NCBI RefSeq assembly: GCF_030384885.1
Contig: NZ_CP128615.1
Origin: Escherichia coli
Lineage (GTDB): Bacteria; Pseudomonadota; Gammaproteobacteria; Enterobacterales; Enterobacteriaceae
Strand: one strand, 5' to 3'
Length of the DNA stretch: 64,000 nucleotides
Part shown: piece by piece, positions 5,910-64,000 of the stretch
Position numbering within the stretch: the first letter of the stretch is position 1
How the letters are laid out: the number at the start of each line of letters is the position of its first letter
Notes under the pieces: generated by a model
Seen by the model: only the letters and a program-made list of their open reading frames with translations
The model's database searches: none
What the model was told of the DNA's origin: nothing
Made by a program: the position numbers and the translations under genes

Positions 5910-7985
5910 TCAATTAACCCCAAGCGCCTTAAACACGGCATCGACGGGGTCTGCATAAAAGCTGATCTGGAATTTTGAGAACAACTCAGCAGGAACCGTT
6001 GGAATATCTGAGGCTGAGGCCATTGGGAGCAAAATACGCTTTGCGCCACTGTCCATAGCTAACTGAAGACTGCCTGCAAGATCTTGAACAGGATTGACGA
6101 CACCACCTAAAGTCATCTCACCCAAAACAACCATCTGCTCTTGAATCGGTCGGTTCATCAGAATTGAACAGAACGCAATTAATGCAGCGAGCGATGACTT
6201 TGTACTTGGCCCCGTATTGTGGAGCTCAACAACATGGAGGTGATACTCATGATCAGAAAACTTCGCCGACGCACTGATTCTATTCAGGTTACCTTTGAAA
6301 TAATCAAAGCCAACACGCACAGCTTCTTTCGCTGCGGTATTCGAACCAAGGCCAGACACTGAGTGTTTACCAGAACCAGCCATCATCTGGGTTTCATAGC
6401 GATATAACCCAAGCTGCCCAGTGCTTCCCTGAGTAACCAAGTGCACGACACCAGCGCGAGGTAAGCCCTCAGGAATTAGCTTGCTGCCACCTTGTTCCGG
6501 TACATTGATGAAGAATTCTTCTAATGAATCGTTATCGATGTAGCTAAAGTGCACATCAAAAAATTCCATTCCGCCAAGCTTTTTCAATTGCTCTTTGACT
6601 CTACGTCTAGTTTCCAGCGCATAGGTCAGGCAGGCTCTTACATCATCTTTTGTGTACTGTGCGTCGGGGTGTAGTAGCTTTAACAAGCCCGAAACAGTTC
6701 TGCGTACAGCAATTACATCACGCTGATTAAGGTTATTACCGAGTTTGAAGAACTTATCGATAGCATCCGCAAAACTTCTTTTGCGCATTTCACGCATGTA
6801 TTCAGCAAGATAGTCTGTGATTAATCCGTAACTATTGGTGAAAAACTCAGGACGCATCTTCGGTATTTCCCATCCAGGAATATAGGAATGGAAACGGTCA
6901 AAAAAAGCAGTGTCAATCATGGCTTCAGGAAAAGGTGCCAACAGATGACTGGTCTTCACCAGTGTCTCAACGCTTTGATTGATGTTACCGACGAATACCA
7001 TGGAAGCCTTCGCTTCGATTGAATCACGACCACGGGCAAAAGACCCTGACGCCATATAATCTTTCATTATTTGGACGCCGTCTTTGTCTTTAAAGTTAAT
7101 ACCCGCTACTTCATCAAAGGCGACAACATCCCACATTCCGACCAACCCAACTTGGCGCGAGCTCATGTTATAGAACAAGTTCGCCACAGTTGTTTGTCCG
7201 CCCGAGACAAGCAATGAGTTTGGTGAGCACTCCTTGTAGACATGGCTTTTACCTGTCCCTCTTGGTCCGAGCTCACAAACGTTGTAGTTGTTTTCAACGA
7301 ATGGGATCATACGAGTGATAAGATGCCATTTCACCCGATGCTCTAAGTTGGTTGGCTCCATACCCACGGAACGAAGCAACACATCCATCCACTGATCGGT
7401 ACTAAAATGTCTTCTGGTTGAAAACACCTCATCCATGTTCATGGACGGCATTTGTATCGGTTTTAAACTCATAATGGAGAAAGGTGATGTCTTCTGACCT
7501 TCCTCAAAGAAATACTGGACGGTAATAATGCACCAGATGCCGCCAGTTAATAATTTTTCGTTGTCTTGTACTATTTTGGTCGGTACAAGGGCATCCTTGA
7601 TACCCAGGTTCGACAACGCAGCTTCATAGACGTCTTTTTTCTGGTTGAGCTTAACGCTTACTTTGTCGATGATTTTAAACGTGCCGCGTTCACGGATCAG
7701 TGACTTCACTTTCTCCGCTTCATCTGGTCGGACATAGTTCTCAGCCAAGATTTTTTTTACATTATCAAGGCCTTGCATTACAACTTCGTCGTCATCGGAC
7801 GCACAATACATGCCTAGTAAATACTCAAGCACATAGACAGGGACGTTAGCGCCTTCTTTCAATTGCTTTGTCAGATCTTTTCGAACGACACGGCCTTTAA
7901 AATATTGGTTGAGCAATGCGTCTAAATCGGCGCTTTGCATCTGATTTTTTTCGTCTTTATGATCTTGTGAAAAATCAGTTGTCAT
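5910..7985 (-). CDS. brxL: BREX protein BrxL (Lon-like protease domain protein)
   Basis: 691 aa; last gene of a brxA-brxB-brxC-pglX-pglZ-brxL syntenic block; Walker-like GPRGTGKSH and C-terminal Lon-protease-like region. Confidence 0.85.
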   Translation of the reverse strand: MTTDFSQDHKDEKNQMQSADLDALLNQYFKGRVVRKDLTKQLKEGANVPVYVLEYLLGMYCASDDDEVVMQGLDNVKKILAENYVRPDEAEKVKSLIRERGTFKIIDKVSVKLNQKKDVYEAALSNLGIKDALVPTKIVQDNEKLLTGGIWCIITVQYFFEEGQKTSPFSIMSLKPIQMPSMNMDEVFSTRRHFSTDQWMDVLLRSVGMEPTNLEHRVKWHLITRMIPFVENNYNVCELGPRGTGKSHVYKECSPNSLLVSGGQTTVANLFYNMSSRQVGLVGMWDVVAFDEVAGINFKDKDGVQIMKDYMASGSFARGRDSIEAKASMVFVGNINQSVETLVKTSHLLAPFPEAMIDTAFFDRFHSYIPGWEIPKMRPEFFTNSYGLITDYLAEYMREMRKRSFADAIDKFFKLGNNLNQRDVIAVRRTVSGLLKLLHPDAQYTKDDVRACLTYALETRRRVKEQLKKLGGMEFFDVHFSYIDNDSLEEFFINVPEQGGSKLIPEGLPRAGVVHLVTQGSTGQLGLYRYETQMMAGSGKHSVSGLGSNTAAKEAVRVGFDYFKGNLNRISASAKFSDHEYHLHVVELHNTGPSTKSSLAALIAFCSILMNRPIQEQMVVLGEMTLGGVVNPVQDLAGSLQLAMDSGAKRILLPMASASDIPTVPAELFSKFQISFYADPVDAVFKALGVN

Positions 7986-8001
7986 GTTTCACCTCAGCGC
8001 C

Positions 8002-10674
8002 TTAGAAAAAATCATCTTGGAATGCCAAATCAATGGTTACCGCGTATTGGCTATAACGGGTTCTCATTTCCGCATTCTCAAGAACTAATGTGTATTGAGC
8101 GTTTCTATCGAACTGGGAGCCAATAAGCTTTAACCTAGCTTCGCGAGTACGTTCATCCATCACTTTACTCACGCTATCAAAGTTAATCGTTTCACGACTG
8201 GAGACTTCATTACCTTGTGCATCGACGATATAGACATCCAACAACCGTGCGACGAAACGCTCGCCTACAGGGTCTGTCTGAATAAATCTGACCTTGTCGA
8301 TATTGTTTACTAATTTGATGGGCTGAGTGGCTGCTACAACACCTACCGGTTGTTTCTCATGTTTTGCTGCTTGTTCTTTTTGTAGCTCTCGCACATGTAG
8401 TACCGGTACGCAGACTTCCTGTAGCATCGCTCCGCCATGCACAAACTTAGCACCACCAACGAAGTGGAAGCGTTGAGCCGCTTTTGGAAGCAGGAACTCG
8501 GTATCACTTGAGCCATGAGCCGTATCGTTAATTGAGCCTTTCCAACAGGCTTCATCTGAAGGCAAGTTATTACCAACGATATAACGTTTCTTGGCTTCTA
8601 TCGCTCCAGCAGGTTTGGTTTTCAACGAGGTTTTGTCAGCCGCTACAAGTGCTTTTTGTTGGAAGAGGAAGCCATGGTCAGCAGTGATCACAACTCGGCT
8701 GCCGTTTAGACGGTTGATGACCCGCCCAACGAGGTCTTTTAGCTCTTCAATGGCACTACGACAGGCTTCAAACGTTTTCTCTTCAGTTGCTGCCTTATCA
8801 CCAATCGCATCAATGGTATCGTGATAGATATAAACGACTTCTACGTCTCGAACCTTGTCACGCCCCTCCTGGTTACTCCAGCTCATCAGTTCCTTAGAAC
8901 TCACTGCCATACCACCTACTTTTTGTAGGATGGCGTTGCGGTTGTCTAGACCCTGTGAAGAAATACCATCCACATAAACAGCCGTGCCTTGCTCTGGCTG
9001 GTAACTGAGCGCCTTATGAGGCAATAATGCCGCCATCCCAAGTTGGGTATAACTCGGCAAAACGCCCAACTGCGTAGACACCTCAGCCTTAAATCGCTTC
9101 TCGTTGTTAATGATAGCGCCAAGCTCATTCGCAATTTCAAAACGCAGGGCATCAGAGATGATCACAAACACTCGTTTTGTCTGTTTCAGACTCAGTCGTG
9201 TGCGAACTTCTTTTTCATAGAAGTCATACTGGTGCGGTACGCCAGAAATCTGCCACTTTTCAAGTAATTTTTCATTGGCCAAGTGACGATCCCATGCAAG
9301 GCCAAGCTCATACAAGTACCAGTTGGTATAAATGCTTTCGACTTCGTCGTCGAGCTGACGCAGTATGTCTGCACCTTTACTCAATACAGAGTGCACATGC
9401 TCATTGAACAAACGGTAAGCCTGGTCAAAACGATAAATGTCTGTGGTATAGGCGTCGTACATTGCTTTCGCGTTATCAAAGTGGAACCCATCCACATAGC
9501 GATTTCGCAAGTGCATTAACTCTTCAGCGTTGCGGATAGCTTCATAAATTGCGAAGTATTCTTTGCGTGACAATGTCCAGTGGCTAGAAAGACGTCTTGA
9601 TAAGACCGTATCAAACTGAACCCGGTCTAGCGCTTTACTGCTATCGAGCAAATCACGAACTAAACCACGGATTATGGCCTGTTCCACAGCTTCGAACGTT
9701 TCGCATTCGATAAGCTCAACCGGATGGTACTGCCCAGCACGAGTCGAAATTTCCAACTGTTGGCTAAGCACCTTAGAGATGCTTTCGTAGTAAGCGGCGA
9801 AAGAGCGGCTGTCGCGCCAGCTCACCATAAACGCCAAGGCTGTCGCCCGGCCTGATGCGCTTTTTAGAACATTGTTAAGCAACCAATCGCGTTCAACACC
9901 TTCAATTTGGCTCCAGAATTCAGTACAGAATAATTTCAACACGAAGTCTGAGAAGGTTGGCTCTTCAACTGTATAGCCAAAACCCTCACTCAGATATGCC
10001 CAGAGTGAGGTCTCAAGATCAAACTTTCCTAGCTGGCTCCATAAAGGTTGACCAAGGCTTTCATCTTCGATATAAGCCGCATATTCGCGTAGTAACCCAA
10101 GCAGAATGTCCGACAAAGACGCAGAATCAGCTTTTACAACCACTGCCATCATCTTTCTGTCTAACGACAGTTCGTCTTCGTTCTCAGTCACCCACTTTTT
10201 TAAACCGGCTATGCGCTGTTTATTGGCAAAAAAGCTCTGGCGCTTACGAATGTGCGTGCGAAGCGCCATTTTCGGAATACCCAGCTCATTAAGCAGCATT
10301 GAGCTGTGATCAGCAAAAAACTGCTCGCTATACAAACGCACGTCTAGCAACCAATCGCGGTCAGGCTCTGGCTCAGCGCTTGGAAAATAGATAAGGAATT
10401 TAGCTTCACGCTCATCTACTTCAATGCGTTTTTTCACTGCCAATACAGACTCATTGCCCATATTGAGGATGGTCAAATCATTTGGAAGCACCCGTGCAGT
10501 TTTATCCGCCGATTTATCGTCTGTTTCTTTTGCAAGCCCTTCTTTTGCAATAGAGAGGGCGTTAGCTAAATGCTCAAGCTCTTCAGTAAAGCTTTGCTCT
10601 GGGTCGTACCAAAACACAATGCGGCTTTGTTCAAATTTGGCAGCAACGCCTTGTGCCAGTTCACTAATCTGCAT
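8002..10674 (-). CDS. pglZ: BREX protein PglZ (alkaline-phosphatase superfamily)
   Basis: 890 aa; position between pglX and brxL; size and composition match PglZ. Confidence 0.85.
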   Translation of the reverse strand: MQISELAQGVAAKFEQSRIVFWYDPEQSFTEELEHLANALSIAKEGLAKETDDKSADKTARVLPNDLTILNMGNESVLAVKKRIEVDEREAKFLIYFPSAEPEPDRDWLLDVRLYSEQFFADHSSMLLNELGIPKMALRTHIRKRQSFFANKQRIAGLKKWVTENEDELSLDRKMMAVVVKADSASLSDILLGLLREYAAYIEDESLGQPLWSQLGKFDLETSLWAYLSEGFGYTVEEPTFSDFVLKLFCTEFWSQIEGVERDWLLNNVLKSASGRATALAFMVSWRDSRSFAAYYESISKVLSQQLEISTRAGQYHPVELIECETFEAVEQAIIRGLVRDLLDSSKALDRVQFDTVLSRRLSSHWTLSRKEYFAIYEAIRNAEELMHLRNRYVDGFHFDNAKAMYDAYTTDIYRFDQAYRLFNEHVHSVLSKGADILRQLDDEVESIYTNWYLYELGLAWDRHLANEKLLEKWQISGVPHQYDFYEKEVRTRLSLKQTKRVFVIISDALRFEIANELGAIINNEKRFKAEVSTQLGVLPSYTQLGMAALLPHKALSYQPEQGTAVYVDGISSQGLDNRNAILQKVGGMAVSSKELMSWSNQEGRDKVRDVEVVYIYHDTIDAIGDKAATEEKTFEACRSAIEELKDLVGRVINRLNGSRVVITADHGFLFQQKALVAADKTSLKTKPAGAIEAKKRYIVGNNLPSDEACWKGSINDTAHGSSDTEFLLPKAAQRFHFVGGAKFVHGGAMLQEVCVPVLHVRELQKEQAAKHEKQPVGVVAATQPIKLVNNIDKVRFIQTDPVGERFVARLLDVYIVDAQGNEVSSRETINFDSVSKVMDERTREARLKLIGSQFDRNAQYTLVLENAEMRTRYSQYAVTIDLAFQDDFF

Positions 10675-13600
10675 TAGTTAACCTCCGGGGCCGAACCGGT
10701 AATGGCCTTAACATCAGCCAACAGATCACCAAACTTGCCGTAATTCACTTTCACGCCATCATCCAAATCCAGTGAAATACGCATATCAGCGTAGTGTTTT
10801 AGCTTGTCATCAAACTCGCGTAGTTCAACCTGTTTCTTGATTAAGGCATCCAACTCTTTCTTGAAGCGGTTCGCTTCACTGGTCGAGTCTGCCGTTTCAA
10901 TCTGCTTCTCAAGCTGCTCTGCATAAGCATCGTATTTGCCGAGTAACGGGGTGACATACTCGGTACGCATACGCGAAAGCGTGCCCTCGTTGTAACGGTG
11001 CAGGTAAACCAGGCACTCAAAAGCCTTCTGTTTGCCTGAGCTAAACAACCAATAAATAGGACGTTTTTTGTATGTCTTCAGGTGGTCTTTGTAGAATTGA
11101 GTCGATAAATAGCGGCGGATCGTCTCAAGAGCTGATTCTGATTTTTTGGGCTTTATGGCATTTAAGCACAGAGACTCTGCAACAAAATCGAGATTTTCTT
11201 GTAAGTGTTCTTCACCCCAAACAACTTGGACAAACTCGCGGAAACGATTGGTTGCGTCGTCCTTGAACCATTCTTGGTCGGTTAGGGGAATGATGCCATT
11301 TTCGTCGGCAGCAAAAGATTGATAAGCACCTTCGGCAACGAGTTTATCAAACCCATAATTACAAGCATGAGCGTAGACTAAGCCTTCACGATCAAGAGAG
11401 TAACGCCCCATCATGCAACCAATGGAGTAACTAATGAGTTCACAGGTTGTATCAGATTTTAACTTACTTAAATCAGTAGAATTTTCATATCGAAAAGCAG
11501 GGTTAGCAAATAATGATAGTGTTGAAATATCTATTGAAACCGGCACCGAAATTCCAAAATCATTGCATATTAAAGAATTAACTTCACTTTCCAAATTGGC
11601 TTGTTCATTAACTAGATTTAACTTCACTTCATTTAGAACCTGATAAGATTCAGCAATTTTGGCACGTTTTATTTTACACAGAGGCGAACATTCAAAGTTC
11701 CATGACGTTTCGTACATATCCCAATCAACCTTTGCGTTGGAAATTAAATCGCTCACCTTTTCAAACAATGCTTCTTTGTCAGCCTTATTGAAAATTGCCG
11801 GCAATGAGGCTATTTGACTCGTTTCATAGTTAAGCGTTGGCGAAATGATTTTTAACTGTTCCAGCACTACAGATGAGTTTAACTGAGCCAATAAGGCATA
11901 TTCTTCAATTCGAGAATTAAGAAATACTGATGCACCTGCAACGTCAAATATCGCTCCTTCAGGCTGCCATCTGAACGATGGAATTCCACTCGAAATTTTT
12001 GACCAAGTTACTGAGCTACGAAAATAAAATGCACCATTTTTCACAGTTCTAGTAGGAGACCCATACAAACTTTTAGCGTATGCAAATACCTCTTCACCTG
12101 CATTTTCCCAATTAATTACGTATTCCTGATTGCCATACCATTTTCTATATGAACCGCCTTTATTATATGGAAACCATTTGAATCCTGAGGATTCAGCTTC
12201 ATCTTTAGAACTAGAGTCATACATTGAGGTGTTTACTGGAACTTCATGCCATAGCCTTAAGAATCTATTATTATCACTTGTTTGACACCCAACTCTAGTT
12301 TTAGCAACTGACGATATTGGCGCGTCCATAAATGTATTTAATATTTCCTTGGCAACCCAATAAGCAATCGGACTCCCAGGAATCTTTTTGAAATCATCCT
12401 GAGCTGTCGCTGCAAATTCATTCTCTCTATTGAGCAATGCTTTTTGCTTTTCTTCTTCATTGCCATCTATCAGCCTATAAAAGGTAGGTTGATAATGATT
12501 GATGTGCTTATTTTGAATAATCCAGGCAGTAGTCTGTACAACCTCGCCACTAATCTGACTAAAAGCGCGTGCACCGAGGTGAGCCATAGTAATAAATGTA
12601 TGGTCTTCCAATAAATTGTTTCTTAGTTGCTCATAACTCGACAAGAACATCCACGATTGCATATTGATTTGAGCATTAAATCCATATTGAGAAAGCAATT
12701 TAAATGCTCGCTCCATAAAAATGGCAAACAAGTCTGATTTACTATTTGGGTATTGTTTCTTAGCAAACTCTTTCAAATCTGCATTCATTCCTTTTGCTCC
12801 CATATAGGGAGGATTAGCAATCACAGCATCGTAACGAATAGATAAAACCAAAGCCTGGTGAACAAACTCAATCAATTGCTTCGCTGCCAGCTTCTGCATT
12901 GAGTCGCCTGACTCTTGTAGCTCTACTAGCGTGCTCAGGAGCTCTTTTAGCTGTTCATGGTCATCGCTTGGTACATCAATCAATGAACCAAAGGTCTTGG
13001 CTTGAGTAAATCTTGCCAACGTTCGCTTCAGCAGTTGGTAGCGGTTGTCTGCATTGAACGAGCTTAAATCTTGCTCTTCGTCAGAGAACAGTCCTTGTGA
13101 TGTGCCGCTTTGCCAACTTCCCGATAGGTTGAGTGCTTTCCATAAGGTCGGCAGATCAATATGGTTACTTTCCTGCAATGACAGTACATTGAGTCGCACG
13201 TTACGGGTAAAAATACGCTTGTCGTCATCTCTCGCCATCATCATCAGGGCAAAGCCAGATAGCTGTGCTGCACGATCATCTATGTCCAAGCCGAAGAGGT
13301 TGTTCTCCAGGATCATCTTTGGAATGTCACGAGAGCGGAAACCACGTTCTTCGTAGATGGCTTTTAGTACGTTGTAAGCTTCAATCAGTATGTGGCCCGA
13401 GCCACAAGCGGGATCGAGTACTTTGATGGTTTCAGGTTCAATCGATTCTGGCGTAATAGCCTTTAGCTGTTGGTTAACTTCGTCAGATTGCTGCGCAGGC
13501 TCAATGTAGTATTCCATCTGGCTTTTAATGGCAGAGTCTGGGTAGGTTTGCAGCCATTGACGACCGACTGAGTTTTGTACCAGGTACTTTACAATCCAGT

Positions 13601-24625: not shown

Positions 24626-25208
24626 TGACCTGCTCCCCGTTGATTAGTACACCCCGATGTTAGTAATGTCTTCATAAGCCACATGAGGACATCCCCATGA
24701 AGAAGCGTTTTTCCGACGAACAGATCATCAGTATTCTCCGCGAAGCCGAAGCTGGGGTACCCGCCCGTGAACTCTGCCGCAAGCATGCCATTTCCGATGC
24801 CACGTTTTACACCTGGCGTAAGAAGTATGGCGGTATGGAGGTGCCTGAAGTTAAGCGCCTGAAGTCGCTTGAGGAAGAGAACGCCAGACTCAAGAAGCTG
24901 CTTGCCGAAGCCATGCTGGATAAAGAGGCGCTTCAGGTGGCTCTTGGGCGAAAGTACTGACGACAGACCAGAAGCGGGAAGCCGTGATGCTGATGTGTGA
25001 TGCGACCGGTCTGTCGCAACGTCGTGCCTGCAGGCTTACAGGTTTGTCCCTGTCGACCTGCCGCTATGAGGCTCACCGTCCGGCTGCTGATGCGCATTTA
25101 TCAGGGCGCATCACTGAGCTGGCACTGGAGCGCAGGCGTTTTGGCTACCGTCGTATTTGGCAATTGCTGCGCCGTGAAGGGCTTCATGTTAATCATAAGC
25201 GCGTGTAG
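24626..25208 (+). mobile_element. IS3-family (IS407-group-like) element, 3'-truncated within orfB
   Basis: Begins TGACCTGCTCCCCGTTGATTAGTACACCCCGATG; orfA 24697-24960 and first 74 codons of orfB (24984-25208) only. Confidence 0.6.
24697..24960 (+). CDS. IS3-family (IS407-group) transposase OrfA
   Basis: MKKRFSDEQIISILREAEAGVPARELCRKHAISDATFYTWRKKYGG... Confidence 0.8.
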   Translation: MKKRFSDEQIISILREAEAGVPARELCRKHAISDATFYTWRKKYGGMEVPEVKRLKSLEEENARLKKLLAEAMLDKEALQVALGRKY

Positions 25209-45181: not shown

Positions 45182-45673
45182 GTCTGTGTTGTAAAATGGC
45201 GCCGAAAGCCCGGCGTAGCCGGTTGCCGGGCTATAAATTCTGCCACCCTACCCCCTGCCCTGATTAGCCTTAACTCGCGAACAGCAATGAAGAAGTCAAA
45301 GTAATCCCTTTTAACCCCGGTGAGCGGGCTTTACGGCGTTTACGACGTAAAGGGCGTGATTTCCGGGGCCTAAGCGGCGGCAGCTTGCTGCTGACGCTTA
45401 GGGGGATGTTCATCAACTATTTCAGCGACACCAGGGAACTTAACACGGTAGCTGCAAAGCCCTAATCCCGCTCACCGCCACGCAGCTGCCGTACGTCCCC
45501 CACGGGGGTGCGCAGTGCTGCGCGCGGGAACGGCGGCCCGTCTGCGGGACGCGGCGCCGTACTGCGCGTTAGCGGCCGCACGCGGCCGGTTACGGGGGAC
45601 ACTCCGCCATACGACCAGCGACCCGCTGAGCTGCACAATCCACAGATAACACAAGCTACATACATGTCGATAT

Positions 45674-46245
45674 GGGAATCGGCCCACCTTGCCGGGCGCC
45701 GGTGCCGTGTGGAAATCCGCCCACCTTGCCGCGCGCCGGTGCCGTGTGGGAATCCGCCCACCTTGCCGCGCGCCGGTGCCGTGTGGGAATCCGCCCACCT
45801 TGCCGGGCGCCGGTGCTGTGTGGAAATCCGCCCACCTTACCGGGCGCCGGTGCTGTGTGGAAATCCGCCCATCTTGCCGGGCGCCGGTGCCGTGTGGGAA
45901 TCCGCCCACCTTACCGGGCGCCGGTGCCGTGTGGGAATCCGCCCACCTTACCGGGCGCCGGTGCCGTGTGGGAATCCGCCCACCTTACCGGGCGCCGGTG
46001 CTGTGTGGAAATCCGCCCACCTTGCCGCGCGCCGGTGCCGTGTGGGAATCCGCCCACCTTGCCGCGCGCCGGTGCCGTGTGGGAATCCGCCCACCTTGCC
46101 GGGCGCCGGTGCTGTGTGGAAATCCGCCCACCTTACCGGGCGCCGGTGCTGTGTGGAAATCCGCCCATCTTGCCGGGCGCCGGTGCCGTGTGGGAATCCG
46201 CCCACCTTACCGGGCGCCGGTGCTGTGTGGAAATCCGCCCATCTT
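45674..46245. repeat. Tandem array of about 15.5 copies of a 37-bp repeat (GAATCCGCCCACCTTGCCGCGCGCCGGTGCCGTGTGG with point variants)
   Basis: Contiguous head-to-tail repeats without spacers; downstream of a truncated repA paralog, i.e. in the position of an incC/incA-type iteron array. Confidence 0.85.
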
Positions 46246-46595: not shown

Positions 46596-46610
46596 GGTAA
46601 TGACTCCAAC

Positions 46611-47114
46611 TTACTGATAGTGTTTTATGTTCAGATAATGCCCGATGACTTTGTCATGCAGCGCCACCGATTTTGAGAACGACAGTGACTTCCTGCCCAG
46701 CCTTGCCAGATGCTGCCTCAGATTCTGGTTATGCCGCTCAATTCGCTGCGTATATCGCTTGCTGATAACGTGCAGTTCTCCCTTCAGGCGGGATTCATAA
46801 AGCGGCCAGCCATCCGTCATCCATACCACGACCTCAAAGGCCGACAGCAGGCCCGGAAGACGCTCCAGCGTGGCCAGAGTACGCTCACCAAAGACGCGTG
46901 CCACCACCGTCCTGCACATCCTGCCATAGGCGTAAAATAACCAGCGCTGACGTGATTTAGCCCCGACGTAGCCCCACTGTTCGTCCATTTCCGCGCAGAC
47001 AATGACGTCACTGCCCGGTTGTATGCGTGAGGTTACCGACTGCGGTCTGAGTTTTTTAAGTGACGTAAAATCGTGTTGAGGCCAACGCCCATAATGCGGG
47101 CGGTTGCCCGGCAT
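46611..47114 (-). CDS. insB: IS1 InsB
   Basis: 167 aa, 95 percent-range similarity to the other insB in the window. Confidence 0.85.
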
Positions 47115-47308
47115 CCAACGCCATTCATGGCCATATCAATGATTTTCTGGTGCGTACCGGGCTGAGAGGCGGTGTAAGTGAACTGTAGCTGCCATGTTTT
47201 ACGGCAGTGAGAGCAGAGATAGCGCTGATGTCCGGCAGTACTTTTACCGTTACGCACCACGCCTTCAGTAGCTGAGCAGGAGGGACAACTGATGGAGATG
47301 GAAGCCAC
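47033..47308 (-). CDS. insA: IS1 InsA
   Basis: [30 protein letters not shown]... Confidence 0.85.
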
Positions 47309-47379
47309 TGGAGCACCTCAAAGACACCATCGTACACTAAATCAGTAAGTTGGCACCATTATCCGGCAGGCGATCTGGA

Positions 47380-49300
47380 TTATCGTCACGCTGTTAAATA
47401 TGTCGCGGTAGGGATACCCGTTACCGGATACCCCCCGCACAGATCCCGGCGTGCGCGATTTACGCACCGGGCTCCTGCCTCGGGTGTCTGGCGGTGAACC
47501 GCTCCACAGGCCATGGATGAAGAACCCGAACCCTTGGTAGCCATGCGGCTGCCAGTTTGTTTGCTTTCGTCCAGGTCGTATCATCCTTCTGGCTCCTGCG
47601 CCTGAGCGCCCGGCGCCAGAGGTTTGTTACGTGTGTCCTGAACTTCTGCATGGTGGGGAAGTTGCCCGGTACCGAGTGATAGTTCAGGTATCCCTGAACC
47701 ACTCTCCTGAGCCATTTTCCCTGTTCGGGGATTGAGTAATGCCAGCGCCTTCGCAGACCGTCTTTGATGGCTTTCAGAGTTGCCGTCATCCGATCCCGGC
47801 GGGTCTTTCGTATCAGCATGAACCTGCCGTTGCGATCTTTCCCGCTGATGTGCGTGAACCCGAGGAAGTTGAACGTTTCTGGTTTGCCTTTTCCCCTGAT
47901 GGCACGGTTTTCGGCAGCGAAGCGGCCGAACTCCATCAGACGGGTTTTCTCCGGGTGAACCGTGAGTCCGAACTCCCTCAGTCTGCGCTGCATGGCTATA
48001 CGGAAGCGCCGGGCATCGTATCGTTTGTCGAACCCGATGACGATGTCATCGGCGTATCTGACCATTACCACATTGCCTGTGGCATAGCGACGTCGCCACT
48101 GATGCGCCCACAGATCGAAGACGTAGTGGAGGTATATGTTTGCCAGCAGCGGTGAGATGACCGCACCCTGTGGGGTGCCTTCCTCCGTTGCTCGCCATTG
48201 ACCCTCCTCCAACGTCCCGGCTGTGAGCCACTTACGTATGAGCCTGATTACGCTCCGGTCGCCGATCCGATGCTCTGTGAACCTGATCAGCCATTCGTGG
48301 CTCACCCTGTCGAAGAACTGACTGATGTCGGCATCCAGTACCCAGTTTACGTTAGTGCGTACCAGCCCTGTGGCCAGTGCGTCCAGTGCATCGTGCTGGC
48401 TTCGCCCGGGTCTGAACCCGTATGAGAACCCCATAAAGTCGTTTTCATAGACTGCGTTCAGGATTTTCACCAGCGCATACTGGACGATCTTGTCCTCCAG
48501 CGAGGCGATGCCGAGCGGGCGTTGTTTTCCATCCGCTTTTGGGATGTAGTGACGCCTGCCGGGCTGCGCCCTGTAGCTGCCCTAATGTAGCCTCCGGTGC
48601 AGATCTGTTATGTTGTTCTTCATGTTTCCGGCGTAGTCCATCCACCTGATGCCATCCACTCCGGCGGCCGCTTTCCTGCTCAGGGAGAGGAATGCGGCTT
48701 CCAGTGCTTCGACTGTCAGCAGGTGGAACAATGCTGTAAACCGTTCTTTCTTCCGCTGCTTCGCAGCTTCCCGCACGCGTGACAGCCTCTGTGACATGCT
48801 TTCCCGGCTCTGTGTCCGGCGCATGTGTGGCTGTTCCGCGTTCCCCTTGGCCCCGCTCCTTCGCTCCACTGACTCCGCTCCTTTCGGGTTGTTCGCCTGC
48901 TTCGCCGCTACTATGAGCGAGTCCGACTTCTCCTCTCCGTACATCACCGGCTATGACTCCTCGTCTTCCCGGTGCGGGCCGTCTCCGACACTGGCAGATG
49001 GTCAGAGGGGAGATCTCCCGGTTCCCGCGTAGAGATCGTATTGACATGCCAGGGTCTCAGACCCCGCCGGGTCCATGTGGCACTCGCAGTATCGCACCCT
49101 ATGATGTTGCCTTCCGTTAACAGTACAACGTCGGCACCCGGTAATTTAATATACATTTCGTGGCTCAATGGCTGGCCTGTCAACACCCCTGTCAACGCTT
49201 CGCCCCATACCTCGCGGTATGCAACGCATGACTCGGGGACCTTGTGGATTGCTGGTCCTTCAATGGTCGGGGACTTTCACCCCTTGATCTCTACCGGTCT
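47380..49300 (-). mobile_element. Group II intron (bacterial, ORF in domain IV), boundaries approximate
   Basis: Encodes an intron-type reverse transcriptase/maturase; domain-V-like hairpin GAGCCCGGTGCGTAAATCGCGCACGCCGGG near 47458-47490 just 3' of the ORF; a GTGCG 5'-consensus-like motif is seen but is too close to the ORF to be the certain 5' end. Confidence 0.55.
47460..48947 (-). pseudogene. Group II intron reverse transcriptase/maturase, split by a frameshift near 48470-48600
   Basis: N-terminal ORF 48582-48947 (domain 0: ...AAAGVDGIRWMDYAGN...) and C-terminal ORF 47460-48470 (RT motifs incl. VRYADD and maturase X-domain VQGYLNYH) are in different frames. Confidence 0.7.
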
Positions 49301-49311
49301 CCCGGTGAACA

Positions 49312-49327
49312 CTGTATGTATAACCAG
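49312..49327 (+). promoter_or_regulatory. LexA (SOS) box upstream of the umuD-like gene
   Basis: CTGTATGTATAACCAG, one mismatch from CTGT-N8-ACAG, about 25 bp upstream of the RBS. Confidence 0.5.
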
Positions 49328-49352
49328 TAAAATTAGAGTGTCAGGAGGAAAG

Positions 49353-49784
49353 ATGAAACTACAACTTTTCAGCACCGGGAAAGAACTCCCGCCACAGGCC
49401 CATCCATTGTTTGCCGATCTGGCCAGCTGCGGTTTTCCCAGCCCTGCTGCTGACTATGTCGAGTCCGATCTGGATCTCCATGATTACTGCATACGGCATC
49501 CGAGCGCGACGTACTACCTGCGTGCCAGCGGAGACAGCATGGCCGACGGCAGTCTGTACAATGGCGATCTGCTGGTTGTGGACAGTGCTGAAAAGCCGCG
49601 GCACGGCGATATCGTTGTCGCCAGCATGCAGGGGGAGTTTACGGTGAAACGGCTTCTGCTGACGCCGCGACTGACGCTGCAGCCCATGAATGCCTCCTGG
49701 TCGCCGATTTATCCTGATCCCGACGAGCTGGATATCTTTGGCGTCGTCACGCATATCATCCACCGCCCGAGGGAGATGTACTGA
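49353..49784 (+). CDS. umuD: UmuD/MucA/ImpA-family SOS mutagenesis protein (S24 peptidase)
   Basis: ...[20 protein letters not shown]...[22 protein letters not shown]...[10 protein letters not shown]; the 270-aa track ORF is an upstream read-through. Confidence 0.85.
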
Positions 49785-51055
49785 TGTTTGCCCTGGCCGA
49801 TGTGAACAGCTTCTATGCCAGCTGTGAACGTGTTTTCCGCCCGGATTTGAAAGGAAAGCCGATAGTCGTCCTGAGCAACAACGACGGGAATGTAATCGCT
49901 CGCAGTGCCGAGGCGAAGCCCTGGATCAAAATGGAAACTCCGTGGTTTCAGATAAAAAACGAAAGATACCCGGAAAAAATATATGCGTTTTCAAGTAACT
50001 ATGAACTTTATGCCTCGATGTTGGCGCGCGTGATGAACAGCCTGGAGGAACTGGCCCCCAGAGTGGAACAGTATTCAATTGATGAGATGTTCCTCGATTT
50101 GACCGGCGTGGAGCACTGTATGGAGCTTGAGGACTTCGGCCGGCAGCTGCGTCAGCACGTGTATGACTGTACCCACCTGACCATTGGCGTGGGCGCCGGA
50201 CCAACGAAGACCCTCGCAAAATCAGCCCAGTGGGCCTCAAAAGAGTGGAAACAGTTTCGTGGCGTACTTGCTCTGACCAGGGGAAATCCGCAGAGAACGC
50301 GGAAACTGCTTTCACTGCAGCCGGTTGAAGAAATCTGGGGGGTGGGTAACCGTATTGCACGCAAGCTGAATGTACTGGGCATTAAGACCGCGCTCGATCT
50401 CGCCCTGACGAACCCGGCCTTCATCCGCAAAAATTTTTCTGTGGTCCTTGAGCGAACGGTACGGGAACTGAACGGGGAAAGCTGCCTTTCGCTTGAGGAA
50501 GCCCCTCCGACGAAACAGCAAATTGTCTGCAGCCGCAGTTTTGGCGTGAAGATCACGGAGTACGAGTCACTCCGTCAGGCTATCTGTCAGCACGCAGAGC
50601 GGGCCTCTGAAAAACTGCGTAAAGAGCACCAGTATTGCCGGCATATTTCCGTTTTCATCAAAACGTCTCCGTTCGCCATTAAAGAGCCTTACTACGGCAA
50701 CGTGGCTACGGAAAAACTTCTTACACCCACTCAGGACACCAGGGACATCATTGCAGCCGCTACAACGGCTCTGGAGCGTATCTGGAGGGATGGGCACCGG
50801 TATGCCAAAGCCGGAGTTATGCTGAATGACTTCACCGGCTCCGGCGTTTCGCAGCTGCAGCTGTTCGACGAACGCCCGCCACGCCCTTACAGTGCTGAGC
50901 TGATGAAGGTTCTGGACGGGATCAACAACTCAGGGCTGGGTAAAGTATGGTTTGCGGGGCGGGGTATTGCCCCGGAATGGCAGATGAAACGGGAGATGCT
51001 TTCTCCTGCTTATACGACACGATGGTCAGATATTCCTTCAGCGAAACTGGCGTAA
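49784..51055 (+). CDS. umuC: UmuC/MucB/ImpB-family Y-family translesion DNA polymerase
   Basis: 423 aa [41 protein letters not shown]...; start overlaps umuD-like stop. Confidence 0.9.
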
Positions 51056-60642: not shown

Positions 60643-61764
60643 CCTTTTTTGAACAGCCTTACCTATTGCTATAGAGGGGAACTCCTACGTTATACGCCGC
60701 TTTCAGGGGATTCGACCTTAATGAGACAACTCAAATATGATCGACAACTTAAACGCGATAGTTGCTGATAAAATCAATCCATTACGCGTTTCAATTGATT
60801 AAATAATGCACTTAATGTACAAAAATTCCCGATCTCAAAACTGAACCCTAAAGATACCAGGCATCTCCCCCAGGAAGCGCCCTCATGCGTTTTCCTGTTC
60901 CGCCCCTGCCACCTACCTTCTGTTTCATACTTGTTGTATTATTGTTTTTGTTTTCAATCCCCAAGGAGACGTCGCTATATGACTGTGCGGGAGACAGAGG
61001 AAAACATTGAACAAATCTTCCCTGAGCTTTCGAACTTAATTGATATTATTAATAAATGGCTTTCCCATGGAAACATTGATCCTGAACTGGCACACTTCAT
61101 CATTTATCTTCTTGATTACCTAACCACCACACACAAAAGCATATAAAAATTTTCCTTGCACATCCATTTTTTTGCGAATATTATTATTCCTGCTGAATAT
61201 GATTCAATATCGCACGCTACTCATCCATCCCAGGATAATGAGTACATAGGTTGAAGTTTCAACACCCCCATTACGGGGGTGTTTTTTTTACCAATAAACA
61301 CAAATCACACCATCGCCATACTCTGTTTGCCAGACATCGATTGGTAAATATGCGTAACTCGCTATAATACAAAAAGAAAAATCAGAACCAGAAACCAGTT
61401 TCCAGATAAAAAACACCCTCCCGAAGGAGGGGACAGACACATTCATATTTCCCAAAACAGGAATTTTTATTTTTATGACGCATTAATGAAGTTACTTCAT
61501 CTCCAGTAGATTAACTTCATTTAAAGTGGCGATCAATCATATTTATTACGACTCTAAACTATTACAACAACCACAATAAGATATCACCTCAAATATAAAA
61601 GATAACTCTTACAAAAACGTTCCGAAAACAAAAAATACAGATAAACACCAATAAAAAACAGAAAACTCTTACACATTTAAAGATGGTAAAATAATATAGA
61701 ACTGTTAGTCTAATGGAGAAGGCGCATCTGATTCAGAGCAATCTATTGCGAAGAATCAGAGTAA

Positions 61765-62826: not shown

Positions 62827-64000
62827 GGCTTGATATAAACCTGGCAGGCAAGGGATCTGGTTAACTCCTTTCCTTCCATAAAGTGTTTGAAGATCCAGAG
62901 ATACGTATCCACAAGCTCCAGCCCTGTACTCTGTGTCCCCGACTGGAAGACCTGCGGTTCAGCTGGTATTTCCGTTACATCCATGACCGGTGTCTGCGCA
63001 GCAGTGCCTGTCATCAGGATCCTGTCACTCTTTCGACCGACAGCTTATGGCATACAGTTGGGCTCGTAAGATCCAGAGTCAATAACTGACAGGGTTTATT
63101 CTGTCATCCTCCGGCAACAAAGGCATATACGATATTCACTTATTTTGTCGGCCCAACGGCTTTTTACAGTAGCTCGTTTTGCCCAACTGATGCTACAGCT
63201 CTTTGGTTTGCTTCATCACGGATATCAGCTCCGACACAGGCACAGCTGACTGGTTGCAACGTCTGCACTTCTCTGGACCTGAAACGTCAATTATCAGGAT
63301 TCTGACGATTAGTCTTAAGACTGTCGGTAAATTAAGTGATGCCAGTTGTCAGGATATTCATGGAGCCAGTCTGCATGCGCCTCTGGCGTTGAGACAAACA
63401 TATGAAGTGTATTTCGGATATGACTGTACGCTCAGGAAGTACGGCAGATTCCGTCAAAAATTACCTGTAAAGACAGACTTCAGAAAAAACAGTGCTCGCC
63501 GCAGACCGGTGACCGGGCGAAGCCCGCGAACCGGCGAGGAAGCGCAATATATCTGTAGTTACAGTGAGCAGGTACGCCCTGAAGCCTTCATAATCGGTAG
63601 TGTATGCTGTTTTTCCGGAATGATTTATCCACATATCCAGAGGCCCGATCCAGTAAATAGATCCATGAATGATCAATAAAGGATCCATTAAAGATCCCCA
63701 TATCGCTACAAACCTTGTTACTCATGGGCCGGGACCACGATCACATAAGCTGTGGCATGTTACTGATAAACTGTAATATGCTAATGATAAGCTGTATTCA
63801 GTAATGCATATACTGAAGTAAGCTAATGACATAAACTATGGTCAGTACGCCAGACTCTGTTGTTAAATACAGACTGCAGGTTTTTCTTCAGTCAGTTAGC
63901 GGGGCTCTGACACACGATTTGCTGTTTATTCTTTTACTGTCCACAGGCAGGAGGCTTTCTGGAAAACGAAAATTCAGACATCAAAAAACTGTTCGGCGAG

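What the first reader, a model, noticed from the sequence alone, without database searches (positions are those of the whole stretch)
47364..49330. Group II intron with a frameshifted reverse transcriptase wedged between IS1 and the umuDC-like promoter
A minus-strand intron-encoded protein with RT motifs (VRYADD) and a maturase X-domain is split into two frames. A domain-V-like hairpin follows the ORF. The element abuts the IS1 end on one side and lies within about 100 bp of the LexA box on the other. Exact intron ends could not be fixed by eye. The frameshift may mean the intron is immobile, or it may be a sequencing error.
Basis: partly seen in the sequence, partly recalled or inferred. Interest (0 to 1): 0.55.

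Follow-up and report, generated by a model that had tools for sequence, protein, structure and literature searches.

The report
Decayed intron docked at LexA box
This is a dead copy of an already catalogued mobile group II intron (S.ma.I1 / Kl.pn.I5). It sits directly against the LexA (SOS repressor) binding site of a plasmid umuDC-like operon, and its intact relatives insert almost only at LexA sites, which I could not find reported.

Summary
The intron is real and complete: window 47402-49310, minus strand, 1909 nt. Rfam RF02005 scores 186.6 bits. EBS1 and EBS2 are identified. Domains V and VI are supported by covariation.

The "frameshift" is wrong. The copy has exactly the length of intact copies and has no indel. 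The ORF is broken by one in-frame CAG>TAG change (codon 122, 48584-48582). It is not a sequencing error, because 196 plasmid records carry the same allele. The 5' splice-site consensus is also mutated (GUGCG to GUUCA), so this copy is almost certainly immobile.

The element matches the catalogued intron S.ma.I1 / Se.ma.I1 / Kl.pn.I5, known as "retA" in the IncR plasmid backbone.

The position next to the LexA box is not chance. Intron nucleotide 1 follows the box directly (TACTGGTTATACATACAGT|G). Across 101 distinct insertion sites of intact relatives, 94 are CTGT-N8-ACAG boxes with at most one mismatch. These lie upstream of umuD homologues, dinI, tum, sbmC, imuA, tisB and a colicin gene. EBS2 and EBS1 pair with the box spacer and right half-site.

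In the window the intron lies antisense to umuD. Its mutated 5' end forms a -35-like hexamer for that operon, which may be exaptation. I found no paper that describes LexA-box homing.

The parts
47402..49310 (-). Complete but decayed group II intron (1909 nt). It matches the intron catalogued as S.ma.I1 / Se.ma.I1 / Kl.pn.I5.
   Evidence: It has the same length as intact copies L002, L003, L026 and L208, with no indel and 6 private substitutions. The ends were defined by copies at other loci and by an empty site.
49306..49310 (-). Mutated 5' splice-site consensus: GUUCA instead of GUGCG (G3>U at 49308, G5>A at 49306).
   Evidence: Among about 850 plasmid records with this site, 382 carry this allele, 23 carry a further G1>U, and the rest are mostly intact.
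49052..49277 (-). Ribozyme core region covered by Rfam RF02005 (intron positions 34-259). It contains EBS2 and EBS1.
   Evidence: 186.6 bits, gathering score 49.
49149..49156 (-). EBS2 (AUGUAUAU) in an internal loop. It pairs 7/7 with exon positions -12..-6 (UAUACAU).
   Evidence: It co-varies with the exon across lineages (Burkholderia AUGGAUA with TATCCAT; L027, L005, L046, L034).
49119..49124 (-). EBS1 (ACUGUU) in a hairpin loop. It pairs with IBS1 (U/A)ACAGU, which is the right half of the LexA box.
   Evidence: EBS1-IBS1 pairing averages 5.67/6 in 12 lineages against 2.54/6 for mismatched partners.
47460..48947 (-). Intron-encoded RT/maturase reading frame (495 codons plus stop), now a pseudogene.
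   Evidence: Differences from the intact protein: Q122*, R232S, S246L.
48582..48584 (-). In-frame TAG (CAG>TAG, codon 122).
   Evidence: The allele is in 196 plasmid records, against 3314 with one mismatch in the same 61-mer.
48045..48056 (-). YADD catalytic motif of the RT (within VRYADD).
47442..47474 (-). Domain V (33 nt) with an AGC triad and an AC bulge. The ORF stop TAA (47462-47460) lies in its loop. The triad G faces A in every family member.
   Evidence: Covariation in 11 distinct relatives.
47404..47439 (-). Domain VI hairpin (GUAA loop) with a bulged branch-point A at 47409, 7 nt before the 3' end.
   Evidence: 99% of cells paired, 7 pairs with compensatory changes.
49311..49329 (.). 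LexA (SOS) box of the umuD-like operon, which is also the end of the intron's 5' exon. Minus strand TACTGGTTATACATACAGT; plus-strand core CTGTATGTATAACCAG.
   Evidence: The same box is occupied by intact introns in L058, L062, L114, L127 and L208.
49306..49333 (+). Promoter-like site TGAACA-16 nt-TAAAAT reading into umuD. Its -35 hexamer is built from the mutated intron 5' end.
   Evidence: 9/12 matches. The intact allele L208 gives none. The G1>U allele L209 gives GTGAAA-17-TAAAAT.
47364..47401 (-). Remnant of the 3' exon (38 nt), cut off by IS1.
   Evidence: The same remnant and IS1 junction occur in L059 and L209.
46596..47363 (-). IS1X3 element flanking the 3' exon remnant. The sequences on its two sides do not form a matching target duplication.
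49353..51055 (+). umuD-like (49353-49784) and umuC-like (49784-51055) genes controlled by the box. The intron is antisense to them.
   Evidence: The homologous UmuD-like protein from L090, which differs from the window's at one residue, scores 144.8 bits on NF007621.

Best explanation
The window holds a full-length but dead copy of the catalogued IIB-type, endonuclease-less group II intron S.ma.I1 / Kl.pn.I5. It sits at the kind of site its lineage homes to, namely a LexA operator.

How active relatives work. They reverse-splice into DNA immediately after ...CTGT-N8-ACAGT. EBS2 pairs with the AT-rich spacer (-12..-6). EBS1 pairs with the right half-site (-6..-1). The U next to EBS1 probably pairs with the A at +1. 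The IEP then makes the cDNA. Because the box is a palindrome, either orientation is possible.

This copy. It went in antisense to the plasmid umuD-like gene, so it cannot be spliced from that mRNA, and it displaced the DNA upstream of the operator. It then decayed. Two substitutions destroyed the GUGCG 5' end, a nonsense mutation (Q122*) and two missense changes hit the RT, and IS1 cut the 3' exon. It now persists as inert IncR backbone ('retA').

Shown: the anatomy, the ends, the lesions, the population frequency, the LexA-box association and the EBS/IBS covariation. Inferred: the retrohoming mechanism, the lack of activity, and any role of LexA or the SOS response.
For: - Anatomy and ends.
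- No indel, and a single in-frame stop. PGAP labels it 'internal stop'.
- Allele frequencies.
- Identity with the named intron: the Kl.pn.I5 reference copy is on the K. pneumoniae plasmid pK245 (PMC3522654). Synonyms are Se.ma.I1 (PMC6764390) and S.ma.I1, described as 'group IIB' and 1910 nt (PMC5517477 and PMC4147364).
- LexA-box homing: searches used intron sequence only. They gave 101 distinct 5' flanks, of which 76 are perfect and 94 have at most one mismatch to CTGT-N8-ACAG.
- The adjacent genes are UmuD homologues, DinI, a Tum-like protein, SbmC and ImuA. Chromosomal umuDC and tisB sites also occur.
- Enrichment over unoccupied sites that are EBS-compatible: 76/101 against 7/161, Fisher p = 3e-35.
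- An empty site shows the uninterrupted box.
Against: - Rfam's general DV/DVI model (RF00029) does not hit the window copy.
- Pfam GIIM (maturase) is not detected. Only TIGR04416 covers that region.
- No experiment shows that the intact allele splices or moves, or that this copy is inactive.
- Distinct 25-nt flanks are not all independent insertion events. Several are orthologous prophage or plasmid sites.
- Seven of 101 sites lack the left half-site, so the full box is not strictly required.
- Selection after insertion could inflate the enrichment, since intergenic operator sites are tolerated.
- I matched the element to the name Kl.pn.I5 / S.ma.I1 through the literature (host plasmid, length, hosts). 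I did not align it to the database sequence.
Confidence: 0.85

Rival explanations
1. One reading: the intron RT is frameshifted, and the lesion may be a sequencing error in this record.
For: the ORF listing shows two ORF pieces and an overlapping 200-aa ORF in another frame. By eye this can look like a frame change.
Against: Both pieces are in one frame. The copy is 1909 nt, like intact copies, with no indel. There is a single TAG at codon 122. The same allele is in 196 plasmid records, and the whole region is 100% identical in many independent assemblies.
Confidence: 0.02
2. The substitutions at the intron's 5' end were selected because they rebuild a -35 element for the umuDC-like operon, whose upstream promoter DNA the antisense insertion displaced. 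On this view the intron's first nucleotides have been exapted as promoter, at the cost of the 5' splice site. This adds to the best explanation rather than replacing it.
For: Two of 6 private substitutions fall in the first 5 of 1909 nt (binomial p = 1e-4). A sub-lineage (L209) adds a third at position 1. Read on the umuD strand at 17-nt spacing from TAAAAT, the hexamer goes GCGCAC (intact), then GTGAAC (window), then GTGAAA (L209). Every change moves toward TTGACA. The promoter scan finds a site in the window and in L209 but none with the intact 5' end. The empty site has TTTATA at the equivalent position.
Against: The hexamers are weak (4/6). The real -10 of this operon is unknown. Other candidates exist: TATAAC inside the box, or TATACT spanning the insertion point in the empty site. 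Under those, the changed bases fall in a spacer or in a destroyed -10. Clustered errors could instead come from error-prone completion of retrohoming at the 5' junction, or from selection to silence the intron. About half of the plasmids with this site keep the intact 5' end.
Confidence: 0.3
3. LexA-box association follows entirely from EBS2/EBS1 base pairing with an AT-rich spacer plus ACAGT, together with purifying selection against insertions elsewhere. The palindrome, the left half-site and LexA itself play no part in recognition.
For: All occupied sites have at least 5/7 IBS2 pairing. Seven of 101 sites lack CTGT yet are occupied. Among unoccupied sites with at least 6/7 IBS2 pairing, 17% are already LexA boxes.
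Against: EBS-compatible sites that are not LexA boxes outnumber LexA-type ones 154 to 7 (at least 5/7) or 24 to 5 (at least 6/7) in 1.5 Mb of background. Occupied sites are 75% perfect boxes and 93% within one mismatch. Positions -17..-14 lie outside the EBS footprint and are 86-96% conserved.
Confidence: 0.3
4. The interrupted RT gene ('retA') is a domesticated plasmid backbone gene. On this view the 336-aa downstream ORF is still functional, or the RNA is still mobilised in trans by an intact copy elsewhere in the cell.
For: The element is conserved at 100% identity across many IncR-type plasmids. A 336-aa ORF with RT motifs remains. Intact copies are common in the same hosts.
Against: All three coding changes relative to intact copies are nonsense or missense, which fits relaxed constraint. 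The 336-aa piece lacks the N-terminal RT0 region and has no obvious start context. The GUUCA 5' end removes the consensus needed for splicing even if the IEP is supplied in trans. The high identity reflects recent clonal spread. Sister plasmids carry the intact intron at the same site.
Confidence: 0.05

Closest known systems
S.ma.I1 / Se.ma.I1 / Kl.pn.I5 (Zimmerly group II intron database; reference copy on K. pneumoniae IncR plasmid pK245; 'retA' in IncR backbone descriptions)
   Same: Same hosts, same plasmid family and same length (1909-1910 nt), and described as IIB. It is reported in intergenic sites with conserved IBS, on plasmids and chromosomes of Klebsiella (PMC3522654, PMC5517477, PMC4147364, PMC6764390). 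The window copy is a decayed allele of it.
   Different: The window allele carries Q122*, GUUCA at the 5' end and an IS1-truncated 3' exon. The papers I could read do not link the homing site to LexA or SOS boxes. PMC3522654 has no occurrence of 'SOS' or 'umu' and reported no free homing sites in K. pneumoniae MGH.
RmInt1 of Sinorhizobium meliloti (endonuclease-less IIB intron, class D)
   Same: Both are compact (about 1.9 kb). In both the IEP has RT and maturase but no En domain, and recognition uses EBS1 and EBS2. By analogy, mobility is expected to rely on replication-fork DNA rather than on second-strand cleavage. That point rests on established knowledge of RmInt1 and was not tested here.
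   Different: RmInt1 homes to a site inside an insertion sequence (ISRm2011-2). This lineage homes to a transcription-factor operator present many times per genome and shared across Beta- and Gammaproteobacteria, plasmids and phages. I did not compare the two sequences.
Group IIC introns (terminator-hairpin and attC-targeting)
   Same: They target a short palindromic DNA motif that recurs many times per genome and lies outside coding sequence. They insert just 3' of the motif. Their IEPs also lack the En domain.
   Different: IIC introns lack EBS2 and read a stem-loop plus 3-4 nt of IBS1. This intron has a co-varying EBS2 and a 6-nt EBS1, an AGC rather than CGC triad, and a sequence-defined target.
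Bacterial class E/F introns (IIE/IIF; PMC3753933)
   Same: The non-coding RNA is small (about 421 nt here; 450-700 nt quoted for IIE/IIF). EBS1 and EBS2 lie in domain Id. Relatives sharing the 5' 19-mer occur in Chlorobi and Geobacter, genera that supplied IIE/IIF examples.
   Different: I did not test class membership. No reference IEP or RNA of classes A-F was available for a phylogeny.

Membership tests
Group II intron (ribozyme plus IEP retroelement) | Ribozyme core matching a curated covariance model | tested here: met
   RF02005 scores 186.6 bits against a gathering score of 49, over the full model 1-225.
Group II intron (ribozyme plus IEP retroelement) | 5' boundary consensus GUGYG | tested here: not met
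   The window has GUUCA (49310-49306). Intact relatives have GUGCG. Lineage membership stands; the functional consensus is lost.
Group II intron (ribozyme plus IEP retroelement) | Domain V (AGC triad, 2-nt bulge), and domain VI with a bulged A 7-8 nt from the 3' end | tested here: met
   Covariation over 11 distinct relatives: 95% of cells paired, 12 compensatory pairs, 0/500 shuffles, slid controls at most 48%. The branch A is 7 nt from the end. The general Rfam model RF00029 misses it but hits relative L038.
Group II intron (ribozyme plus IEP retroelement) | EBS1/EBS2 complementary to the 5' exon | tested here: met
   In the window, EBS2 pairs 7/7 and EBS1 5/6. Across lineages, true pairs average 5.67/6 against 2.54/6 for cross pairs.
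Group II intron (ribozyme plus IEP retroelement) | Intact RT/maturase ORF in domain IV | tested here: not met
   The family match is clear for the intact allele (TIGR04416 376 bits against a cut-off of 300; RVT_1). The window ORF has Q122*.
Named intron S.ma.I1 / Kl.pn.I5 | Sequence identity to the database reference copy (pK245 / R471a) | tested here: inconclusive
   I matched it by literature description only: IncR plasmid pK245, 1910 nt, Klebsiella plasmids and chromosome, 'IIB'. The reference sequence itself was not aligned.
   1909 nt against 1909 nt with no gap. One frame of 496 codons with a single internal stop.
Group IIC introns | No EBS2; target is a stem-loop plus a short IBS1 | tested here: not met
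   A co-varying EBS2 is present. EBS1 is 6 nt.
Endonuclease-less (En-minus) mobile introns | IEP lacks the HNH/En domain | tested here: met
   Pfam finds only RVT_1 and no HNH. The protein ends 44 aa after the TIGR04416 match.
Endonuclease-less (En-minus) mobile introns | Retrohoming primed at replication forks | not testable with these tools
   Inference from RmInt1 and IIC biology only.
LexA (SOS) box of Beta- and Gammaproteobacteria | CTGT-N8-ACAG palindrome with an AT-rich spacer, upstream of an SOS gene | tested here: met
   The window has CTGTATGTATAACCAG (one mismatch), 26 nt before the umuD-like ATG. The neighbours of other occupied boxes are UmuD, DinI, SbmC and ImuA. LexA binding itself was not tested.

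The most novel reading that the evidence does not exclude
S.ma.I1 / Kl.pn.I5 and its Burkholderia relatives form a group II intron lineage that uses the LexA operator itself as its homing site. This would be a target class alongside genes or IS elements, terminators and attC sites.

The preference goes beyond EBS-IBS pairing. It could reflect the left half-site, the palindrome, or LexA or fork context.

Three consequences would follow. First, sense-oriented copies are transcribed from SOS promoters, so intron RNP production, and therefore mobility, would be induced by DNA damage. Second, the intron reaches dozens of conserved sites per genome, on chromosomes, plasmids and prophages of two proteobacterial classes. 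Third, antisense copies rewire SOS promoters, as in this window, where the intron's own 5' end appears to have been converted into a -35 element for umuDC.

The stated probability covers the specificity being real, going beyond pairing, and not having been described before.
Probability: 0.4. Interest if true: 0.7.

Novelty: already known. Interest (0 to 1): 0.45.

Why it matters
As a sequence feature this is ordinary: a dead copy of a catalogued intron carried in a common resistance-plasmid backbone.

Three points are still useful.

1. Annotation. The lesion is a nonsense mutation plus a ruined 5' splice site, not a frameshift, and the intron ends are now exact.

2. The intron family is very common. 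It occurs in at least 3512 of 72,556 plasmid records. It appears to home to LexA operators, which would tie a retroelement's spread and expression to the SOS response. It would also put it next to mutagenesis (umuDC, imuA), toxin (tisB, colicin) and prophage-induction (tum) genes. If confirmed, this gives a natural, programmable-looking example of operator targeting. It also gives a direct way to test whether DNA damage drives group II intron mobility.

3. The window allele may show a mobile ribozyme's terminus being recycled into a promoter element.

Tried and rejected
- 5' truncation. RF02005 starts only 33 nt from the LexA box, so I first suspected that domain I was missing. Comparison with copies at other loci showed that the intron really starts at 49310 and is simply compact.

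- 3' truncation by IS1. Homology to other copies ends at 47402, with a proper DV/DVI, and 38 nt of exon remain before IS1.

- Rfam RF00029 as a DV/DVI detector. It gave no hit at E<=1 in the window and only one hit among 12 relatives. I replaced it with a covariation count.

- First background estimate for LexA enrichment. It was biased, because the reverse strand of each occupied palindrome counted as an 'unoccupied' box. I repeated it with junction regions masked.

- The assumption that all 3449 plasmid hits at 99% identity or more carry the dead allele. Targeted 61- and 65-mers showed 196 with TAG and 382 with the mutated 5' end.

- Literature. 'group II intron' with 'LexA' found 24 papers, none relevant. 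Adding 'SOS box' found 0, and 'R471a' with 'group II intron' found 0. Dai & Zimmerly 2002 is not held. I recall Kulaeva et al. 1998, Mutat Res 397:247, on insertion elements in the promoter of the R471a mucAB-like genes, but I could not check it.

- Class assignment (A-F, CL, ML). I did not attempt it, for lack of reference sequences.
Full report
WHAT IS THERE. The interval contains a genuine group II intron on the minus strand. Rfam RF02005 (group-II-D1D4-6) matches 49052-49277(-) over its whole length at 186.6 bits (gathering score 49). The long minus-strand reading frame carries VRYADD. Its intact homologue scores 376 bits on NCBIfam TIGR04416 (group II intron RT/maturase, cut-off 300) and matches Pfam RVT_1. 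No HNH domain and no Pfam GIIM hit are found. The nearest solved structures are group II intron RTs, led by GsI-IIC RT (6ar1) at E = 8e-43.

ENDS. Megablast against E. coli genomes showed that copies at unrelated loci share query positions 6 to about 1912 only. I read three of them: L002 in the tisB/istR region, L003 upstream of chromosomal umuDC, and L004 in a prophage-like region. All give ...CTGT-N8-ACAGT|GTGCGCCGGG...CCCTACCGCGAC|A/G.... In the window the same element runs from 49310 (GTTCACCGGG...) to 47402 (...CCCTACCGCGAC), 1909 nt in all. Every intact copy examined has exactly this length, and there is no gap in the alignment. An uninterrupted box in a related plasmid (L210) confirms the insertion point. 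My first two suspicions, a 5' truncation and a 3' truncation by IS1, were therefore wrong. The intron is simply compact, with 363 nt before the ORF and 58 nt after its stop.

THE ORF LESION IS NOT A FRAMESHIFT. The two ORF pieces (48947-48582 and 48470-47460) are in one frame. Translating 48947-47460 gives 495 codons with one internal stop at codon 122 (TAG at 48584-48582; CAG in intact copies). Against the intact protein the differences are Q122*, R232S and S246L. PGAP annotates an identical copy as an ltrA pseudogene with an 'internal stop'. The allele is not a sequencing artefact. A 61-mer centred on the TAG is matched at 99% or better in 196 plasmid records, while 3314 records differ at one base in that 61-mer. 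The whole 2.1-kb region is 100% identical in many independent assemblies.

A SECOND LESION. The first five nucleotides are GUUCA instead of GUGCG (G3>U at 49308, G5>A at 49306). About 850 plasmid records hold this same umuD site. Of these, 382 carry this 5' allele, 23 carry a further G1>U (L209), and most of the rest are intact. An IncR plasmid with a fully intact intron at the identical site is L208. With the nonsense codon and the lost 5' consensus, the window copy is very probably unable to splice or move. This is an inference and was not tested.

DOMAINS V AND VI. Rfam RF00029 gives no hit in the window even at E<=1. Among 12 relatives it passes its gathering score only in L038, at the homologous 3' end. 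I aligned the last 73 nt of 11 distinct family members and tested a DV + DVI structure. 95% of cells are paired, 12 pairs carry compensatory changes, 0 of 500 shuffles reach this, and slid controls reach at most 48%.

- DV is 47474-47442 (33 nt, AGC triad, AC bulge). The triad G faces an A in every member. The ORF stop codon lies in the DV loop.
- DVI is 47439-47404, with a bulged A at 47409, 7 nt from the 3' end.

IDENTITY. Leclercq & Cordaux 2012 (PMC3522654) list Kl.pn.I5. [quoted passage not shown] PMC6764390 gives Se.ma.I1 as a synonym. PMC5517477 calls S.ma.I1 a 'group IIB retro-transposable intron', and PMC4147364 lists it at 1910 nt. The window region (rep, parAB, umuCD-like genes, intron) is the IncR backbone: L209 is typed IncR and L208 IncFIA+IncR. 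I matched the name by these descriptions, not by aligning the database sequence.

THE LEXA BOX IS THE HOMING SITE. In the window the intron's first base follows TACTGGTTATACATACAGT. On the other strand this is CTGTATGTATAACCAG, 26 nt before the umuD-like ATG. To test whether this is general, I searched public collections with intron-internal sequence only. I used the 5' 19-mer in 100,044 species genomes and a 33-mer in metagenomes and viral contigs.

- Close relatives gave 101 distinct 25-nt 5' flanks. Of these, 76 match CTGT-N8-ACAG perfectly, 18 have one mismatch and 7 are worse.
- Hosts include E. coli, Klebsiella, Pluralibacter, Burkholderia and Paraburkholderia, as well as plasmids and prophages.
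- Where a neighbouring gene could be read, it is an SOS gene: UmuD homologues (several types), DinI, a Tum-like protein with a DinI domain, SbmC and ImuA. Chromosomal umuDC and tisB sites also occur, and I recognised a colicin-type protein by eye.
- More distant introns that share the 5' 19-mer sit in quite different exons, so the specificity belongs to one sub-lineage.
- Both orientations relative to the regulated gene occur, as expected for a palindromic target.

HOW THE SITE IS READ. The hairpin loop GUACUGUU (EBS1 = ACUGUU, 49124-49119) is complementary to (A/U)ACAGU, the right half-site. The internal loop AUGUAUAU (EBS2, 49156-49149) is complementary to the spacer (TATACAT in the window, 7/7).

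- The assignment is supported by covariation. Across 12 lineages with different exons, EBS1-IBS1 pairing averages 5.67/6, against 2.54/6 for non-cognate pairs.
- Burkholderia copies have EBS1 ACUGUA and EBS2 AUGGAUA, and they sit at TATCCA-TACAGT boxes.
- The +1 exon base is A in 32 of 34 sites. It could pair with the U that precedes EBS1. This is an inference.

Pairing covers -13..+1 only, yet -17..-14 (CTGT) is 86-96% conserved. I took 1.5 Mb of background with junction regions masked. Among unoccupied ACAGT sites with at least 5/7 IBS2 pairing, 7 were LexA-type and 154 were not. At 6/7 or better the split was 5 to 24. Occupied sites are 76 of 101 perfect boxes (Fisher p = 3e-35 and 2e-8).

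So something beyond EBS pairing favours complete boxes. It could be IEP contacts, the palindrome or hairpin, LexA or replication context, or selection after insertion. I cannot tell which. The seven occupied sites without CTGT show that a complete box is not an absolute requirement. Caveats: distinct flanks are not all independent events, and the background comes from the same kinds of loci.

THE WINDOW COPY IN CONTEXT. The intron is antisense to the umuD-like and umuC-like genes (49353-51055, + strand). It therefore cannot be removed from their mRNA, and it replaces whatever lay upstream of the operator.

Two of its six private substitutions fall in the first 5 nt (chance p = 1e-4), and the L209 sub-lineage adds a third at position 1. 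Read on the umuD strand, the hexamer 17 nt upstream of TAAAAT changes from GCGCAC (intact) to GTGAAC (window) to GTGAAA (L209). Each change moves toward TTGACA.

The consensus scan reports TGAACA-16-TAAAAT in the window, GTGAAA-17-TAAAAT in L209, and nothing for the intact allele. This suggests the intron terminus was recruited as a -35 element. The evidence is weak, for three reasons. The operon's true -10 is unknown and the empty site offers alternatives. The hexamers match only 4/6. A mutational explanation at the retrohoming junction is also possible.

On the other side only 38 nt of 3' exon remain before IS1X3 (46596-47363). The sequences flanking IS1 do not form a target duplication. The same remnant and IS1 junction occur in L209, and also in L059, which has a different umuD-like 5' exon. 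L208 has another 3' exon. The region is therefore a mosaic, possibly formed by recombination within intron copies.

COMPARISON AND NOVELTY. The object is an already catalogued intron, and its presence in IncR plasmids is well known. Mechanistically it resembles endonuclease-less IIB introns such as RmInt1. It resembles IIC introns only in choosing a recurrent palindromic, non-coding motif, and it fails the IIC definition because it has a co-varying EBS2.

I could not find any statement that this lineage homes to LexA operators. 'Group II intron' with 'LexA' returns 24 papers in the 8-million-paper library, and none of them is on this subject. The one paper that analysed Kl.pn.I5 homing sites never mentions SOS, LexA or umu. 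Subscription-journal papers could not be read. One of them, which I recall but could not check, is a 1998 Mutation Research paper on insertion elements in the R471a mucAB-like promoter. Priority is therefore uncertain.

VERDICT. The element is ordinary and known. The by-product, LexA-box homing and possible promoter exaptation, deserves follow-up.

Noticed in passing
L172 (IMG/VR UViG_2880021599_000003) 6088-11865: At least three full intron copies and the start of a fourth lie in perfect head-to-tail tandem. The spacing is 1909 nt and the junction is GCGAC|GTGCG, with no exon between copies. The array starts at a LexA box. Copy 1 differs from copies 2 and 3 at 6 positions, so this is not a trivial collapsed-repeat artefact. 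It could come from integration of intron circles or from unequal recombination, or it could be an assembly error.
   Followed up: partly
window 45673-46245: A tandem array of 15.5 copies of a 37-bp unit (93% matches) lies next to a truncated replication-initiator gene on the far side of IS1. It looks like iterons of a second, disrupted replicon.
   Followed up: partly
window 46596-47363, and L059, L209: IS1X3 has no matching target-site duplication on its two sides. The same 3'-exon/IS1 junction is found behind a different umuD-like gene in L059, while IncR plasmid L208 has another 3' exon. The intron seems to act as a portable block of homology that shuffles plasmid backbones.
   Followed up: partly
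plasmid collection: The intron's 61-mer occurs in 3512 of 72,556 plasmid records (about 5%), mostly Klebsiella. Most of these lack the TAG, so apparently intact copies are very common on resistance plasmids.
   Followed up: partly
L013, L059, L063, L079, L080, L084, L085, L090, L096, L105, L115, L127, L145, against L003, L050, L184: At plasmid-type umuD-like genes the intron is mostly antisense (13 distinct flanks). At prophage dinI, tum and 79-aa genes, and at chromosomal umuDC, it is mostly sense. Many loci lack the 3' side, so this count is biased.
   Followed up: no
L026 (Arthrobacter mobilis assembly), L022 (uncultured Prevotella): These contigs carry an enterobacterial-type intron next to a colicin-like gene or an enterobacterial LexA box. 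They are probably contaminant plasmid contigs in those assemblies.
   Followed up: no
window 24927-25044 and 61192-61283: Rfam also reports an IS1222 ribosomal frameshift element (152 bits) and the UptR sRNA (123 bits) elsewhere in the window.
   Followed up: no
window 63857-63872: This is the only perfect CTGT-N8-ACAG in the window (CTGTTGTTAAATACAG). It is unoccupied. Its 3' end is ACAGG/ACAGA rather than ACAGT, and its IBS2 fit was not checked. It may be another LexA box.
   Followed up: no
PMC4147364, table of ncRNAs: Two chromosomal S.ma.I1 copies are listed among RNAs up-regulated in a K. pneumoniae strain after spaceflight. This is an anecdotal hint, compatible with stress or SOS-linked expression, and nothing more.
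   Followed up: no
L168, L169, L171, L157, L197, L147, L004, L210: A family of proteins of about 79 aa (MLRQSDINQAFRES... / MPRNSDIEMAWRQA...), with no NCBIfam match, sits directly downstream of LexA boxes in prophages and plasmids. In L210 it lies upstream of an S24 peptidase (UmuD-like) gene. It looks like an uncharacterised SOS-regulated gene family.
   Followed up: partly
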